A stretch of DNA of 64,000 bases. Origin: Thalassobaculaceae bacterium. Its GTDB lineage: Bacteria > Pseudomonadota > Alphaproteobacteria > Thalassobaculales > Thalassobaculaceae. The position numbers were made by a program. Positions 21,001 to 30,000 of this stretch are shown in pieces; positions within the stretch are counted from its first letter, which is position 1, and every line of letters starts with the position of its first letter. The DNA lies in the NCBI GenBank assembly GCA_965228875.1, contig OZ245843.1, positions 4,570,616 to 4,634,615 on the forward strand, in the 5' to 3' direction.

Positions 21001-24000
21001 ACATCCGTCCCCGGTCCTTGAGGGCGAGGATCGTCGCCGCCGTCGGCAGCACCTTGTGGCCGCGCGCGTCGGCAAGGAGCGAGGCGTAGTACCCGCGGCC
21101 GAGATAGACCAGGTCGCGCGACAGGTTGATGATCCGCACCGGTCCCTTTCCGGCCGCCTTCGGGTCGGTCAGGTAGTCCGAGGTGGCGACCACGCGCAGA
21201 CCCTCCGGCGCGGTCGGCAGGTCGCCCGGACGATCGACCAGGATCACGGGTTGCGTCATGACGTCTCTCCCGGCGCAACATAGACCACGGCCTGCAGGCG
21301 GGACCGCCCGAAGCGGGCCATGGAGGTGAAGGCCGTGCGCGGAATCGGCACGTGGGTGCAGTCGACATCGGTCTTCATCAGGTCCTCGTCCATGTCGGGA
21401 TCGTGCACCAGAATGAAGCGGTCATCGACCCCGGTGACAACGACCCAGTGGGGCGCCTTCTCGTCGTTGAAGCGGTAGGAACTGACCAGCAGCAGCGGGA
21501 TCCAGCCGGCCTCCAGCGCGCGCTCCAGGTCCTCCGGGGACGAGGGCGTGATCTCGGCTTCCAGCCCCGCTGCCGCCAGGTCCGTCAGCAGCATGGCGTG
21601 AACCCGCTCCAGAACCTGCTTCTTCGCCGGAGCGCGGACCGTGTCGAGGAATAGCGGCCCGTCCTCGCTGACGCAGATCCGGACCCGGAAGCCGCGTCGG
21701 TGTGCGGCCAGCGCCAGACCGTGCGGCCCGCAGCCGCCATGCCCCGAGGTCATGAAGATCGTCGTCGCCTCGCGCCAGATGCGCAGCTCCTCGTCGGGAT
21801 CAGGGACCGAATCCGGCTTCAGGGCTGCCATCACCATCATCAGGCTGGCCGGCCCGCAGGTGAACTCGGTGGTCTGGTGAATGTAGGGGACCGGGGTGCG
21901 ACTCTTGGCCGGCGACCAGTGCAGCCGCTTCTCGTAGCGCCAGCCGTCGCCGTCGTCGTCGTAATAGTGCGGCAGGGCGCGCAGCCGCCGGTAGCCGAGG
22001 CGCTCGTACAGGGCGATCGCCTGGGCGTTGTCGGCGCGAACCTCCAGGCGCAGCGCGACGCAGTCGTGGGCGCGCGCCTCGACCTCGCCGTGGCGGACCA
22101 GCGCGGTGCCGAGGCCGGTGCCGGTGGCGCCCGGACGCACCGCAAGCGAGTAGAGCCGCGCCAGGGCGGTTCCGGCATGGAACAGGACGAGGCCATACCC
22201 GAGAACGGTGCCGGCGGTGTCCTGGGCGACGTAAAGGCTGGCCTTGGCGCGGGTCAGCATGTGGTTGAAGCTGCGCCGGGTCAGCCGGTCGGAGTCGAAG
22301 CAGGTGGCCTCGATCTTCAGCAGCGCCGGGATGTCGGCGGTGCTGGCGGCCCGGATGACGGGGGCGGAGGCGGGCTCCGCGCGAAGCTGGCTCATCGGAT
22401 GGGAAAGCGTCCAACGGGGGCCGCCGAAGCGGTGCGCGGCCGGTTACGGATGGCTGCTAATTTATCACCATCCGAAGCCGATCAACGATGAATCTCGCAT
22501 GGCTGGTCAGCGTTTTAGACGGTCGATCGCAATGACCCGGTGGCGCACGGCGTGATCGCGGTCGATCTCGCCGCGTGGCGCCAGATCCCAGATCCAGCCC
22601 TCGTCGGCCGGCGGCAGGGGGGCGCCGTTGTTCGGATCGATCGTCGCGATCACGGACCCGCCGGCGTCGAGGACCTCGATGCTCTTGTCCGCGACCAGGC
22701 TGGCGGGGCAGGCGAACCGCGACAGCCAGTCGAGATGCGCTTCCGCCAGTTCCCGGCCGATGCGCTCGGCGTCGGCGTCGGGCAGGGTGCGCGTGGCCAC
22801 GGTCGCCAGCTGCGAGAGCAGGTTCACGGAGGCGACAAAAGCGATGCCAGGGTCGTCGAGCCAGGCGGTCGGTCTCGAGAAGCCGTCGAGCCGCCCGAGG
22901 TTCTCGGTCACGTCATGCGGTCGGCAGGTCACATTGCCGAGCCTGCGGGCCTGGCGGCGGGTGCGCCAGGAGAACGCGAGATCGACCAGAATGACGGCGT
23001 CGAACCGGGTGGCGAGCGTCTCCAGCGGGATGTCGTTGGCATGTCCGGCACCGAGAACGAGGGCCGTGCCCGCGGGATCGCCGGCCTCTGCGGCGCGGGC
23101 CACGGCGGCCCGCGACCGGGCCTCGTGCGGCGCCCAGGCGTCGGCGTTGCGCCGTCGGCGGGCGGAGATCGCCACAAACTCGCCGAGGTGACCCGACAGC
23201 CGGGCGCCGGGCAGCGCGGGGGTGAGCAGCCAGTCGATCGCTTCGCGCAGCATCGCGCGAGCATGCCAGAGGAAGCGGTGGCGCGAACCGGAAAACGTAC
23301 CGGCGACGATGGCGGGGATTGACAGCCGGCGGCGGCGCGTCGCAGGGTGGCGGCGTGATGCTGGGGTGCCTCCGCGACGGGGGCTGAGATCAGACCCATC
23401 GAACCTGAACCGGGTAACGCCGGCGGAGGGAGACGTCACGGCGCCTGCCGACCAGCCGTTCGCGACGCCGACCGACCGATCTCCCCCCGCACCCGCCCGG
23501 AGGAGTGAGACGTTATGCGCAAGACCCTCGCCAGCCGCCTGTTCCTCGGTGGCGCTCTGCTGTCCCTCGCCGCAACCGGCCTCGCCGACACCGTCCGCCC
23601 GGCGCTGGCGGAGGATCCGGTGGCGATCTCCGTCCTGGTTCCGATCACCGGCTTCCTGGCGCTCGAGGGTACGGCCCAGCGCAACGGTGCCGTCATGGCG
23701 CTCGACGCGCCGCCGCCGGGCGTCGCCGTCACCTATGACGTCGCCGACACCGCCACCTCGCCGGAGGTCGCGGTGACCGCCCTGCGCCGCGCGCTCGACC
23801 GCCAGAAGCCGGTGGCCATCGCCGCGCCGATCTTCGGCACCCAGATGCTGGCCATGGCGCCGATCGCCGACCGCGCCGGCGTGCCGCTGATCACCGTCTC
23901 CGGCACGGCGAAACTGACCGAACTCGGCCATGACGTGGTGTTCCGCTTCTTTCCGACCGACGCGGTGGTGAAGGTCGCCCAGGCGCGCTACGCGGTCGAG

Positions 24001-27000: not shown

Positions 27001-30000
27001 GCTTGCCGCCGGGCCGACGGTCCTGCTGCTCGACGAGCCGGCCTCCGGTCTGAGCGCGACGGAGCGGGCCGATCTCGCCGTGCTGCTGCGCGCGCTGGCC
27101 GATGACGGCATGGCGGTGGTGGTGGTCGAGCACGGCATGGACTTCCTGCTGCCGATCGCCGACCGGCTTGTGTGCCTCGATGCCGGCCGGGTGCTGTCGG
27201 CCGGCCTGACGGACGCGGTGCGAAACGATCCGGCGGTCATTGCCGCCTATCTGGGGACGGAGGCCGGCGAATGACCGCGCGCCTGGAGCTGGAGGAGGTC
27301 ACGGTGCGGCAGGGCGACGGGCTGGCGGTCGACGGCGCCTCCCTGACCTGTGCCGCCGGCGAGGTGGTCGCCGTGCTCGGGGCGAACGGCGCCGGCAAGT
27401 CCAGCCTGATCCGCGCGGTCGCCGGCGCCGATCCGGTGGCCGGCGGTACCATCCGGCTGGAGGGCGAGGACATCACGAGCCTGAGCCTGGAGCGCCGGGT
27501 GCACGCCGGGATCGGCTGGTGCCCTGAGGGTCGGCGGCTGTTTCCCGGCCTGACGGTGGTGGAGACCCTCGACGTCGCCGCCACCGGCAATGCTGCGACA
27601 CGGAAGCGGTCGGTCGACCGCGCCCTGGAGATGTTTCCGGCGCTTGCCGAGCGGCGCGGCGCCGTCGCGTGGACACTGTCCGGCGGCCAGCAGCAGATGC
27701 TGGCGATCGCCCGCGCGGTGATCGCGGAACCTGCGGTCGTGCTGCTGGACGAACCCTCGATCGGTCTGGCGCCGGCGGTTCTCGATGACGTGTTCGCGAC
27801 GATCCGCCGGCTCGCCGAGGCCGGGGCGGCGGTGCTGCTGGCGGAGCAGGCCGTGCCGCGTTCCCTGGCCATCGCCGACCGGGCGGTGGTGCTGCGCCGC
27901 GGCGTCACCGTCCTCGACGTTCCGGCCGATCGGATCGACGGCGGCGTGGTCGCCTCGGCGATGCTGGACGCTGGCTCGGACGGCGCGTAAGACAGGGCAT
28001 CCCCCGCCCGCAGGAGACCAGAATGACCGGCACACCCTCCCCCGACTGGCGCCGCAGCCCGGCCGAGACCGCGGCCGACATCCTGCTGGAGATCCAGGCG
28101 GTGCACATCCGCCCGGAGGAGCCGTTCACCTTCACCTCCGGTCGGCTGTCGCCGGTTTATGTCGACTGCCGCAAGATCATCTCCTTTCCACGCGCCCGGC
28201 GCCGGCTGATGGCGATGGGCGTCGACCAGCTCGCGACCCTTGCCGGCTCGGAGGCGTTCGACATGGTCGCCGGCGGCGAGACCGCCGGCATTCCCTTCGC
28301 CGCCTGGATGGCCGACGCGCTGGACCTGCCGATGCTCTATATCCGCAAGAAACCGAAGGGCTTCGGCCGCAACGCCCGGATCGAGGGCGAGGTGCGCGAC
28401 GGCGCCCGCGTCCTGCTGGTCGAGGACCTGGCCACCGACGGCGGCAGCAAGATCTCCTTCATCGACGCCATCCGCGAGGCGGGGATGCAGGTCGCCCACT
28501 GTTTTGTGGTCTTCCATTACGGCGTGTTTCCGCAGAGTGTCGCCGGCCTGAAGGATGTGGGCGTGGACCTGCATGGACTGTGCACCTGGTGGGACGTGCT
28601 GGCGGTGGCGGAGCGCCGCGGCTACACGGCCGAGCAGCTGGATCAGGTCCGCGCGTTCCTCGCCGATCCGGAGGACTGGGACGCACGGCACCGCACGGTG
28701 ACCGTATAACGGAGGAAACGATGCTGAAGATCCTGGGGCGGGCCAATTCCGCCAACGTGCAAAAGGTGCTGTGGGCCTGCGAGGAGATGGGCGTGCCGTT
28801 CGAGCGCGAGGACTACGGCGGCGCGTTCGGCAAGACCAAGGACAAGGCCTATACCGACCTGAACCCGAACAGCGTCGTCCCGACGATCGACGACGACGGC
28901 TTCGTGCTGTGGGAATCGAACGCCTGCACCCGCTACCTCGCGGCCAAGCACGACAGAGGCGGCCTGTGCCCGACCGATCCGCAGGAGTATGCCGACGCGG
29001 ACCGCTGGATGGACTGGCAGCAGACCACGGTCCTGCCGTTCATGACCCCGATCTTCTGGGGCTTCGTGCGCACGGCGGAGGCGGACCGGGACATGGCGGT
29101 GATCAACGCGGCGGTCGAGCGCGGCAACACCGTCTACCCGATCCTGGACAGGCGCCTCGAAGGCCGGAAGTTCATCATGGGCGACCGGCTGACCATGGCC
29201 GACATTCCGGTCGCCATTCAGGCCTATCGCTTCCTGACCCTGGTCGAGGACCGGCCGGCCATGCCGAACCTCGAGGCCTGGATGGAGAACTGCCGCGCCA
29301 CCCAAGGATTCAAGAAGTGGATCGACCTGCCGCTGACGTGAGCCTGACGCCGTCGACGTAGACGGCGTCGATCTCCGTATTCAGCAGGAAATCGACCGCC
29401 TGCGCCGGGGTCTCGACGATCGGCTCGCCGGGACCGTTGAACGAAGTGTTCATCACCACCGGCACGCCGGTCTCCGCCTCGTAGGCCTCGATCAGCCGGC
29501 GGAAGCCGCCGGTGTCGTCGCCAACGGTCTGCACCCGGGCGGAGCCGTCCACATGGGTGATCGCCGGCAGGCGGTCGCCCTTCACCTGGGCGGTGAACAG
29601 CATGTGCGGCGACAGCGTCGGTCCGCCGTCGAACCAGGCTGCGGCCTTTTCCCTCAGCACCGCCGGGGCGAACGGCCGCCACACCTCGCGCCGCTTGATC
29701 TCGTTCACCCGCCGCCAGTTCGCCGCCTGGCGCGGGTCGCAGACGATCGAGCGGTGGCCGAGGGCCCGCGGGCCGACCTCGCTGCGCCCCTCGAACCAGG
29801 CGATGACCCGGTCACCGGCCACCATCCGCCCGGCATCGGCGGCGGCATCGAGGGTGTCGTCGACCACGACCGCGTCGCGCCGGCCCTCCAGCGCCCGCTC
29901 CAGGTCGTCGCGCCCGTAGGCGAATCCGAGAAAGGCGCTGTCGGAGCGGTCCATGCCGGCGGTTTCCCGCGGCAGGTCCAGAACGTCGTGGGCCAGCGCC

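What a model noticed while it worked through the whole genome (the two positions that open the first line are those of the whole stretch)
23352..27990. TPP-riboswitch-controlled Liv-type (branched-chain-amino-acid family) ABC transporter in a genome with no ThiC, ThiG or [...]
One of the two TPP riboswitches of this genome sits 66 nt upstream of a four-gene ABC transporter of the LivK/LivHMGF type (g04218-g04221), and this pairing is kept across the genus; the other riboswitch controls a ThiXYZ-like (NMT1) pyrimidine salvage transporter. The complete genome has ThiD, ThiE, ThiL and TenA but no ThiC, ThiG/Thi4 or ThiM. I read the Liv-type system as a new family of vitamin-B1-related importer, most likely for the thiazole moiety (HET/cHET or its phosphate) or thiamine itself; it would add a transporter class to marine B1 cycling and leave an unknown thiazole kinase to be found.
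Evidence so far: rna.tsv: TPP aptamer 4593967-4594064 (+), 59.3 bits, E 8e-11, over Rfam's cut-off; next genes g04218 at 4594130 (+) Peripla_BP_6/ANF_receptor, g04219 BPD_transp_2, g04220 BPD_transp_2+ABC_tran, g04221 ABC_tran; best Swiss-Prot 25-42% to BraC/Liv proteins. The other aptamer at 1201911 (-) precedes BPD_transp_1 and NMT1 genes. Rfam TPP search in 10 other genus genomes: 8 have riboswitches; in 7 of them one aptamer lies beside orthologues (85-88% and 93-96% identity) of g04218/g04219 within the 3-kb loci, and in all 8 another lies beside the NMT1 system. Present: ThiD g00009, ThiE g04558, ThiL g01229, TenA g02139, YjbQ g01810. No Pfam row for ThiC_Rad_SAM, ThiG, Thi4, HK (ThiM) or TPK; six-fram [...]
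(Added by a program. Inside this text positions count along the whole contig: contig position 4,570,616 is position 1 of the stretch shown here. "Call 12" and the like, gene names such as g00115 and contig names such as C1 are that model's own, and its searches are not shown. The text may have been shortened before it was handed on; [...] marks where a part breaks off. The agent that wrote the report below was given it as the finding of a first reader that could run no searches.)

Follow-up and report, generated by a model that had tools for sequence, protein, structure and literature searches.

The report
Riboswitch-controlled vitamin B1 precursor importer
A vitamin-B1-sensing RNA switch controls a transporter that looks like an amino-acid importer, and it occurs almost only in bacteria that cannot make the thiazole half of the vitamin, so it most likely imports that half.

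Summary
A full-length TPP aptamer (window 23352-23449, 59.3 bits, cut-off 54.3) lies 65 nt before a four-gene Liv/HAAT-type ABC importer: binding protein, permease, fused permease-ATPase, ATPase. The complete genome has ThiD, ThiE, ThiL and TenA. I found no ThiC, ThiG, Thi4, ThiM, TPK or ThiB.

The pairing reaches far beyond the genus. Of 74 orthologous loci with upstream DNA, 59 have a TPP aptamer over Rfam's cut-off, 13 have a weaker one, and 2 have none.

Fifty-five genomes carry the riboswitch-linked system. ThiG is in 2, ThiE in 53 and ThiM in 7. In sampled Alphaproteobacteria without the binding protein, ThiG is in 142 of 281.

Five genomes keep ThiC but lack ThiG. In three of them the only two TPP riboswitches control thiC and this transporter.

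Best reading: a TPP-repressed importer for the thiazole moiety of thiamin. The exact chemical form is unknown. The kinase needed in ThiM-less genomes is also unknown.

It is absent from the lists of thiamin transporters I could read. RegPrecise and Romine 2017 could not be consulted. The substrate is inferred, not shown.

The parts
23352..23449 (+). TPP (THI-box) riboswitch aptamer
   Evidence: Rfam RF00059, 59.3 bits (gathering score 54.3), model positions 1-105. It is one of only two in the genome. Orthologous loci carry it at the same place.
23450..23514 (+). Expression platform: C-rich tract 23480-23488, Shine-Dalgarno GGAGGAG 23499-23505, start codon 23515
   Evidence: Sequence read. No terminator-like site lies between aptamer and start codon. 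With the aptamer masked from folding, the C-tract pairs with the Shine-Dalgarno. In the free fold it pairs with the aptamer's 3' strand GGAGGGAG. The mechanism is inferred; the fold is no better than shuffles (z -0.6).
23515..24672 (+). Periplasmic substrate-binding protein, Liv/HAAT type (385 aa)
   Evidence: Pfam Peripla_BP_6, E 7.9e-49. NCBIfam LivJ/K subfamily model scores 46 bits against a cut-off of 477. AlphaFold2 model pLDDT 90.3 with the type I binding-protein fold; the best solved relatives are 24% identical or less. Orthologues are 44-89% identical across Alphaproteobacteria.
24700..25590 (+). LivH-like permease (296 aa)
   Evidence: Pfam BPD_transp_2, E 1.8e-34. The best NCBIfam models (UrtB, LivH) score far below their cut-offs.
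25601..27274 (+). Fused LivM-like permease and LivG-like ATPase (557 aa)
   Evidence: Pfam BPD_transp_2 (residues 31-293), ABC_tran (346-481) and BCA_ABC_TP_C (530-555). Open frames of about 555-596 aa sit at the same place in related loci.
27271..27990 (+). LivF-like ATPase (239 aa)
   Evidence: Pfam ABC_tran, E 9e-30. The ATG at 27271 overlaps the TGA of the preceding gene as ATGA. UrtE and LivF models score below their cut-offs.

Best explanation
This is a TPP-riboswitch-repressed ABC importer of the Liv/HAAT architecture that has been recruited to thiamin salvage. When TPP is scarce the leader allows translation. The periplasmic binding protein then captures a thiamin-related compound, and the LivH-like and LivM-like permeases import it, powered by the two ATPases.

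The substrate is most likely the thiazole moiety: carboxythiazole (cHET), HET, or a phosphorylated form. Inside the cell, thiazole phosphate is joined by ThiE to HMP-PP. The HMP-PP comes from pyrimidine imported by the second riboswitch-controlled system (ThiXY/NMT1) plus ThiD, or in some relatives from ThiC. ThiL then makes TPP.

Shown here: the riboswitch, the operon, its conservation, and the distribution of thiamin genes among carrier genomes. Inferred: the substrate, the off-switch mechanism by Shine-Dalgarno sequestration, and how the thiazole is phosphorylated where ThiM is missing.
For: (1) The aptamer is over Rfam's cut-off, directly before the operon.

(2) The pairing is conserved. 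Of 79 orthologous loci (55-89% identity), 59 have TPP at or above the cut-off. Thirteen more have a weaker TPP element at the same place: 12 match a motif scan, 9 of those also scored 46.6-52.4 bits by Infernal, and L048 scores 53.6 bits by Infernal alone. Five lack upstream DNA and 2 have none. In an even sample of 301 Alphaproteobacteria, 20 carry the binding protein and 13 of those carry the TPP element.

(3) Distribution in the 55 genomes with the riboswitch-linked system: ThiG in 2, ThiE in 53, ThiM in 7, ThiC in 6. Background ThiG is 142 of 281 in sampled genomes without the binding protein. Homologues without a riboswitch sit in genomes with ThiG in 4 of 9.

(4) G035, G041, G044, G045 and G166 have ThiC and ThiE but no ThiG. 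In G041, G044 and G045 the only two TPP elements precede thiC and this transporter.

(5) In genomes without ThiC the other riboswitch precedes a ThiXY/NMT1 pyrimidine-type importer: 16 of 19 regions examined. The pyrimidine need is therefore already covered.

(6) The binding protein is unlike amino-acid binders of known specificity (LivJ/K model 46 of 477 bits). It is one of 15 Peripla_BP_6 proteins in the genome and has no paralogue at tblastn E 1e-8 or better.

(7) On a family tree the riboswitch-less homologues are nested inside the riboswitch-bearing family, so the link looks old and was lost several times.
Against: No ligand was tested; the substrate rests on regulation and gene distribution.
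- ThiM is missing from 48 of 55 carriers, including this genome. HET or cHET would therefore need an unknown kinase. No kinase gene is kept in the operon.
- Two carriers have ThiG. G096 has ThiC and ThiG. G134 has ThiG but no ThiC and would need pyrimidine rather than thiazole; it is a MAG with 5% contamination.
- Completeness of the 48 genomes reached through loci is not given, so some absences may be assembly gaps.
- Related genomes are not independent counts.
- Thirteen of the upstream elements are below Rfam's cut-off.
- The thermodynamic fold of the leader is no better than shuffles, and in the free fold the Shine-Dalgarno is also paired.
Confidence: 0.6

Rival explanations
1. The system imports intact thiamin, or thiamin mono- or diphosphate, replacing ThiBPQ, which this genome lacks.
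For: TPP riboswitches often control thiamin importers (passages of PMC3766115). ThiB was not found with TIGR01276. ThiL is present and could use imported TMP directly, without any unknown kinase. The two ThiG-positive carriers fit a general thiamin importer.
Against: It does not explain why ThiE is kept in 53 of 55 carriers, together with ThiD and either ThiC or a riboswitch-controlled pyrimidine importer. Without a thiazole phosphate source those genes are useless. It also does not explain the specific link with loss of ThiG rather than with B1 auxotrophy in general. Free thiamin would need a ThiK or TPK; TPK is absent and ThiK was not searched for.
Confidence: 0.15
2. The system imports a pyrimidine-moiety compound (HMP, AmMP, FAMP or a related breakdown product), as a second pyrimidine salvage route beside ThiXY.
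For: Forty-nine of 55 carriers lack ThiC. TenA is present. G134 has ThiG but no ThiC and still carries the riboswitch-linked system.
Against: Genomes without ThiC already have a riboswitch-controlled NMT1/ThiY system: 16 of 19 regions examined. Five carriers make HMP with ThiC yet keep this system and lack ThiG. Apart from G134, no ThiG-positive, ThiC-negative genome was found among the carriers; how common that genotype is among the sampled genomes without the binding protein was not counted.
Confidence: 0.07
3. This is a cofactor-sparing response. When TPP is low, TPP-dependent acetohydroxyacid synthase and keto-acid dehydrogenases fail, and the cell switches on an importer for branched-chain amino acids or related acids.
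For: The architecture is that of branched-chain amino-acid importers, and the closest solved structures bind Leu/Ile/Val or aromatic and keto acids. Public records call the binding protein a branched-chain amino-acid binding protein.
Against: All LivJ/K, LivH, LivG and LivF equivalog models score far below their cut-offs. Identity to any solved amino-acid binder is 24% or less. The genome has 14 other Peripla_BP_6 proteins. Sparing would be expected in B1 auxotrophs of any kind and not mainly in genomes that lost ThiG. I recall no precedent for TPP riboswitches controlling sparing genes; that is recollection, not a test.
Confidence: 0.07

Closest known systems
ThiXYZ (NMT1/ThiY-type) pyrimidine-precursor ABC importer under a TPP riboswitch
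   Same: Both are binding-protein-dependent ABC importers for a thiamin precursor, switched off by a TPP riboswitch in a salvage-dependent organism. This genome has one as its only other TPP-regulated operon.
   Different: It belongs to a different ABC family: an NMT1 binding protein with a BPD_transp_1 permease, against Peripla_BP_6 with two BPD_transp_2 permeases here. It probably serves the other half of the vitamin.
ThiBPQ thiamin/TMP/TPP ABC importer of enterobacteria
   Same: It is a TPP-riboswitch-regulated ABC importer for a thiamin compound. It appears among TPP-regulated transporters in supplement file 5 of PMC3766115.
   Different: ThiB is a different binding-protein class, and TIGR01276 finds nothing in this genome. 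The substrate here is probably not intact thiamin.
E. coli LivJ/LivK-LivHMGF branched-chain amino-acid importer and the Urt urea importer (HAAT family)
   Same: They share the gene set and domain families: Peripla_BP_6, two BPD_transp_2, two ABC_tran with the BCA_ABC_TP_C tail. The binding protein has the same fold.
   Different: All equivalog models fail their cut-offs, for example LivJ/K 46 of 477 bits and UrtB 131 of 250 bits. LivM and LivG are fused in one protein. A TPP riboswitch is conserved upstream. The system occurs mainly in genomes without ThiG.
ThiW and ThiU, predicted thiazole transporters of Firmicutes and Pasteurellaceae
   Same: Their roles as proposed thiazole-moiety importers, inferred from TPP riboswitches and gene context, are recalled from Rodionov 2002, which I did not read here. 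Their names appear in supplement file 5 of PMC3766115.
   Different: As I recall, they are single membrane proteins (ThiW an ECF S-component), not binding-protein-dependent ABC systems, and they are found in other phyla. They were not compared by sequence here.

Membership tests
TPP riboswitch (Rfam RF00059) | Covariance-model score at or above the curated gathering score over the full model | tested here: met
   59.3 bits against 54.3, model positions 1-105. The whole-genome search gives the same result.
TPP riboswitch (Rfam RF00059) | Kept at the same place before orthologous genes in other genomes | tested here: met
   59 of 79 loci are at or above the cut-off and 13 more are weaker, out of 74 loci that have upstream DNA. 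In the even class sample, 12 of 19 loci carry it.
TPP riboswitch (Rfam RF00059) | An expression platform that couples ligand binding to gene expression | tested here: inconclusive
   There is no terminator. A C-tract can pair either with the aptamer's 3' strand or with the Shine-Dalgarno. The fold energy is no better than shuffles. There is no experiment.
HAAT / Liv-type ABC importers (architecture) | Peripla_BP_6 binding protein, two BPD_transp_2 permease domains, and two ABC_tran ATPase domains | tested here: met
   All five domains are found over Pfam's cut-offs in four genes.
LivJ/K-LivHMGF branched-chain amino-acid transporter (NCBIfam equivalogs) | Score over the curated cut-offs of NF011933, NF008011, NF008449 and NF008626 | tested here: not met
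   Scores against cut-offs are 46.1/477, 99.3/379, 154.4/362 and 164.5/441 bits.
Urea ABC transporter UrtABCDE (NCBIfam equivalogs) | Score over the cut-offs of TIGR03409, TIGR03411 and TIGR03410 | tested here: not met
   Scores against cut-offs are 131.1/250.3, 158.9/304.1 and 193.2/285.8 bits. No UrtA model hit the binding protein.
ThiXYZ pyrimidine-precursor importer | NMT1/THI5-like binding protein with a BPD_transp_1 permease | tested here: not met
   The binding protein has only Peripla_BP_6/ANF_receptor, and the permeases are BPD_transp_2. The genome's true NMT1 system is elsewhere.
ThiBPQ thiamin importer | ThiB-type binding protein (TIGR01276) | tested here: not met
   There is no match in the whole genome.
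Thiamin-related importer (functional class) | Binds and transports a thiamin-related compound | not testable with these tools
   This needs ligand-binding or uptake assays. Here it is inferred from regulation and from gene distribution.

The most novel reading that the evidence does not exclude
This would be the first high-affinity bacterial importer for the charged thiazole vitamer of seawater, carboxythiazole (cHET) or a phosphorylated thiazole. It is carried by SAR116 and at least a dozen other alphaproteobacterial families. Because 48 of 55 carriers lack ThiM, it would also reveal a ThiM-independent route to thiazole phosphate: either an undiscovered thiazole kinase or direct uptake of the phosphate ester.
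Probability: 0.35. Interest if true: 0.8.

Novelty: new variant of a known kind. Interest (0 to 1): 0.68.

Why it matters
Marine and soil B1 surveys score genomes and transcripts with a fixed list of transporters: thiB, thiY, thiV, thiT, ThiPerm, omr1, pnuC/pnuT, cytX, ykoF. I read passages of PMC10881298 and PMC12442306. Neither list contains a thiazole importer, and thiazole use is tracked through thiM alone.

A riboswitch-marked Liv-type importer would change that picture. It is annotated everywhere as an amino-acid transporter, and it is present in about 1 in 15 sampled alphaproteobacterial genomes, including SAR116. It would give surveys a marker for thiazole auxotrophs. It would correct a widespread misannotation. 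It would add a transporter family to vitamin traffic. It would also point to a missing step, thiazole phosphorylation without ThiM, that can now be hunted in cultivable strains.

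Tried and rejected
- Earlier findings of this scan were not open.
- Romine et al. 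2017 (ISME J), the paper most likely to list such a system, is not held. RegPrecise cannot be reached.
- Literature searches for the pairing gave no paper describing a Liv-type thiamin or thiazole transporter. The library lacks most subscription journals.
- Supplement Table S1 of PMC3766115 holds no Rhodospirillales genomes, so it says nothing about this clade.
- I looked for a kinase or other extra gene kept in the operon. The same-strand open frames downstream in 13 related loci gave only unrelated or no families: GST, pyrE-like, Sdh_cyt.
- I looked for a kinase beside ThiE and ThiD. ThiE sits in a gap-aldolase-thiE cluster and ThiD follows a phosphoglucosamine-mutase-like gene. A PdxY-like kinase exists, but nothing ties it to thiazole.
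- Structure comparison gave only generic Liv-type binders and no thiamin ligand.
- Leader folding did not give a clear on/off pair of structures.
- The 227-nt locus L125 was dropped from the survey of other riboswitches.
- Four loci that duplicate genomes already present, and the 242-residue fragment L070, were left out of the tree.

Full report
**What is in the window**

Rfam finds a complete TPP aptamer at 23352-23449 on the + strand: 59.3 bits against a gathering score of 54.3, covering all 105 model positions. Sixty-five bases later an operon of four genes begins:
- 23515-24672: a 385-aa Peripla_BP_6/ANF_receptor binding protein.
- 24700-25590: a 296-aa BPD_transp_2 permease.
- 25601-27274: a 557-aa protein that joins a second BPD_transp_2 permease to an ABC_tran ATPase with the BCA_ABC_TP_C tail.
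- 27271-27990: a second ATPase, whose ATG overlaps the preceding stop as ATGA.

pyrE follows at 28023-28709 and is a neighbour, not a part of the system. Matching the window's binding protein against public contigs returned mostly Thalassobaculum and Thalassobaculaceae records, so the window comes from a Thalassobaculum-like alphaproteobacterium.

**The genome's thiamin genes**

The genome is one contig of 4.96 Mb, scored 100% complete. It has two TPP aptamers.

Whole-genome six-frame family searches found no ThiC, ThiG, ThiM or TPK. Thi4 gave only short FAD-motif matches. ThiB was not found with TIGR01276. In each of these searches the control genomes gave matches.

Present are:
- ThiE, in a gap-aldolase-thiE cluster.
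- ThiD.
- ThiL.
- TenA.

The second aptamer precedes a BPD_transp_1 permease and an NMT1 (ThiY-type) binding protein.

**How far the pairing reaches**

A search of one genome per species with the binding protein returned 79 loci at 55-89% identity. They come from Thalassobaculaceae, Nisaea, SAR116, Reyranellaceae, Stellaceae and many unnamed alphaproteobacterial MAGs.

Rfam at its own cut-off found a TPP aptamer directly upstream, on the gene's strand, in 59 of the 79: 17 of 20, 15 of 20, 13 of 20 and 14 of 19. The other 20 loci divide as follows:
- Twelve match a TPP core motif scan at the same place. That scan hit 65 of the 79 loci in all.
- Nine of those twelve were also scored by Infernal in the whole-genome search, at 46.6-52.4 bits.
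- L048 has a 53.6-bit element at the matching coordinates. This assignment is made by contig name and position.
- Five loci begin at the gene and have no upstream DNA.
- Two have none: L081 from a Stellaceae MAG, and L084 from Stella vacuolata.

An even sample of 301 Alphaproteobacteria, nearly all at least 90% complete, gave the binding protein at E 1e-80 or better in 20 genomes from 14 family codes (13 besides the window's own). Of the other 19 loci, 11 have TPP over the cut-off and one more matches by motif. Seven have none.

On a FastTree tree of 94 binding proteins, the riboswitch-less homologues are scattered inside the riboswitch-bearing family. The simplest reading is an old link that was lost several times. 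That tree is quick and many of its branches are weak.

**Which genomes carry it**

That gives 55 genomes with the riboswitch-linked system.

| Gene | Genomes with it, of 55 |
|---|---|
| ThiG (full length) | 2 (G096, G134) |
| ThiE | 53 (missing in two MAGs) |
| ThiM | 7 (all Thalassobaculum-named) |
| ThiC | 6 |

In the seven genomes with ThiM, thiM or thiM-thiE sits behind a third TPP riboswitch of its own.

For comparison, ThiG is in 142 of the 281 sampled genomes without the binding protein. That count includes one genome flagged as unpublished, G255. ThiG is in 4 of the 9 genomes whose homologue has no riboswitch.

Three cautions apply. Related genomes are not independent. Completeness is not reported for the 48 genomes reached through loci, though several are single-contig chromosomes. 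The groups were defined by the feature of interest.

**The discriminating cases**

G035, G041, G044, G045 and G166 have ThiC and ThiE but no ThiG and no ThiM. These genomes make the pyrimidine half themselves.

In G041, G044 and G045 the genome holds exactly two TPP elements. One is directly before thiC and one is before this transporter.

In 34 of 49 genomes there are exactly two TPP elements. In genomes without ThiC the other element precedes a ThiXY/NMT1 system. Of 19 such regions examined:
- Sixteen have NMT1 downstream.
- One ends after an ATPase gene, where the contig stops.
- One precedes an EamA transporter.
- One precedes a LuxE/LuxC-like pair.

So the pyrimidine half is supplied either by ThiC or by ThiXY. 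ThiE and ThiD are retained. The only remaining riboswitch-controlled function is this importer, in genomes that cannot make thiazole. That is the core of the argument for a thiazole-moiety substrate.

**What the proteins say**

The system has the Liv/HAAT architecture but fails every curated equivalog for Liv and Urt proteins. The LivJ/K model, for example, scores 46 bits against a cut-off of 477.

The binding protein's AlphaFold2 model is confident (pLDDT 90.3, pTM 0.87) and has the type I binding-protein fold. The nearest solved structures bind Leu/Ile/Val, aromatic acids, keto acids, pyroglutamate or urea, and are 24% identical or less. None carries a thiamin-related ligand.

Across 44 orthologues, 74 positions are invariant. 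Many are polar or charged and lie at the C-terminal ends of the beta strands, where such proteins bind their ligand. This placement is read from the secondary-structure map, not from coordinates.

The genome has 15 Peripla_BP_6 proteins. This one has no paralogue at tblastn E 1e-8 or better. Public records call it an ABC or branched-chain amino-acid binding protein, and once EutJ. At least 1078 protein clusters match it at E 1e-60 or better.

**How it probably works**

There is no terminator-like site between aptamer and start codon. A C-rich tract (23480-23488) can pair with the aptamer's 3' strand GGAGGGAG. When the aptamer is withheld from folding, it pairs instead with the Shine-Dalgarno at 23499-23505. 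This fits the usual proteobacterial off-switch by ribosome-site sequestration. It remains inference: the leader's fold energy is ordinary (z -0.6), and in the free fold the ribosome site is paired as well.

**The open problem**

ThiE needs thiazole phosphate, and 48 of 55 carriers have no ThiM. Either an unknown kinase acts on imported HET or cHET, or the phosphate ester itself is imported.

No kinase is kept in the operon or beside thiE or thiD. Liv-type binders commonly hold carboxylates, which makes cHET attractive; this is a resemblance, not a test.

Two carriers with ThiG (G096, and G134, which lacks ThiC) do not fit a strict need for thiazole. G096 could simply salvage. G134 is a MAG with 5% contamination.

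**Rivals**

- Import of thiamin or TMP would need no new kinase if TMP is the substrate. It leaves ThiE, ThiD, ThiC and ThiXY without purpose in genomes that have no thiazole source.
- Pyrimidine import is redundant with ThiXY or ThiC.
- A TPP-sparing amino-acid importer fits the architecture and the database names. It does not fit the failed equivalogs or the specific link with ThiG loss.

**Is it known?**

Supplement file 5 of PMC3766115 (rows read) lists these TPP-regulated transporters: thiXYZ, ykoFEDC, cytX, thiU, thiW, ecfA/T, thiT, pnuT, thiBPQ, omp_thi. No Liv-type system is among them. That study's Table S1 holds no Rhodospirillales genomes.

Two recent marine B1 papers use thiB, thiT, thiY, thiV, cytX, ykoF, ThiPerm, omr1 and pnuC (passages read). 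Neither lists a thiazole transporter.

Nine full-text searches found no description of the pairing. Romine et al. 2017 is not held and RegPrecise could not be consulted, so an earlier listing cannot be excluded. Rodionov 2002 and Paerl 2018 are cited from memory only.

**Verdict**

The feature is real, widely conserved and not annotated. It is a new variant of a known kind: a riboswitch-controlled vitamin-precursor importer built on a transporter family not so far linked to thiamin. A thiazole-moiety substrate is the best-supported reading, at about 0.6. That the substrate is thiamin-related in some form is much more secure.

Noticed in passing
window 47759-47964 (-): Tandem glycine riboswitch: two aptamers at 63.5 and 45.8 bits. 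The gene it controls was not examined.
   Followed up: no
L119:165-1001 (+), after the TPP element at G046:C380:1370-1478: This is a Stellaceae MAG with ThiC but no ThiG, whose Liv homologue has no riboswitch. Its second TPP riboswitch precedes an EamA/DMT-family transporter. That transporter may be a different, non-orthologous thiazole importer. The sampled genomes G164 and G291 show the same ThiC-positive, ThiG-negative, riboswitch-less pattern.
   Followed up: partly
L124:484-3034 (-), G022: A TPP riboswitch precedes a LuxE-like acyl-protein synthetase and a LuxC-like acyl-CoA reductase. The pair could reduce an oxidised thiazole or thiamin carboxylic acid. This is reminiscent of the OarX / acyl-CoA synthetase salvage idea in PMC11223231 (passages read).
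   Followed up: no
L108 (G000:C1:1197000-1202100); also L109, L115, L116, L117: The riboswitch-controlled thiX-thiY operon has no ATPase gene of its own in this genome or in several relatives. In this genome and in L117 (Nisaea) a class IV aminotransferase lies convergent downstream. Which ATPase powers it is open.
   Followed up: partly
window 25601-27274 (+): The LivM-like permease and LivG-like ATPase are fused in one 557-aa protein. Open frames of similar length sit at the same place in related loci.
   Followed up: partly
window 21256-22395 (-): A 379-aa protein joins a GNAT acetyltransferase (RimI-like) to a DUF3335 / peptidase C39-like domain. It lies on the opposite strand, about 1 kb upstream of the riboswitch.
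   Followed up: no
G292 (same genus code as the window, 1.5 Mb, one contig): A strongly reduced genome placed in the same genus has neither the binding protein nor ThiG.
   Followed up: no
L088:6299-6505 (+): A cobalamin riboswitch (111.6 bits) lies about 1 kb downstream of the Liv-type operon in G175.
   Followed up: no
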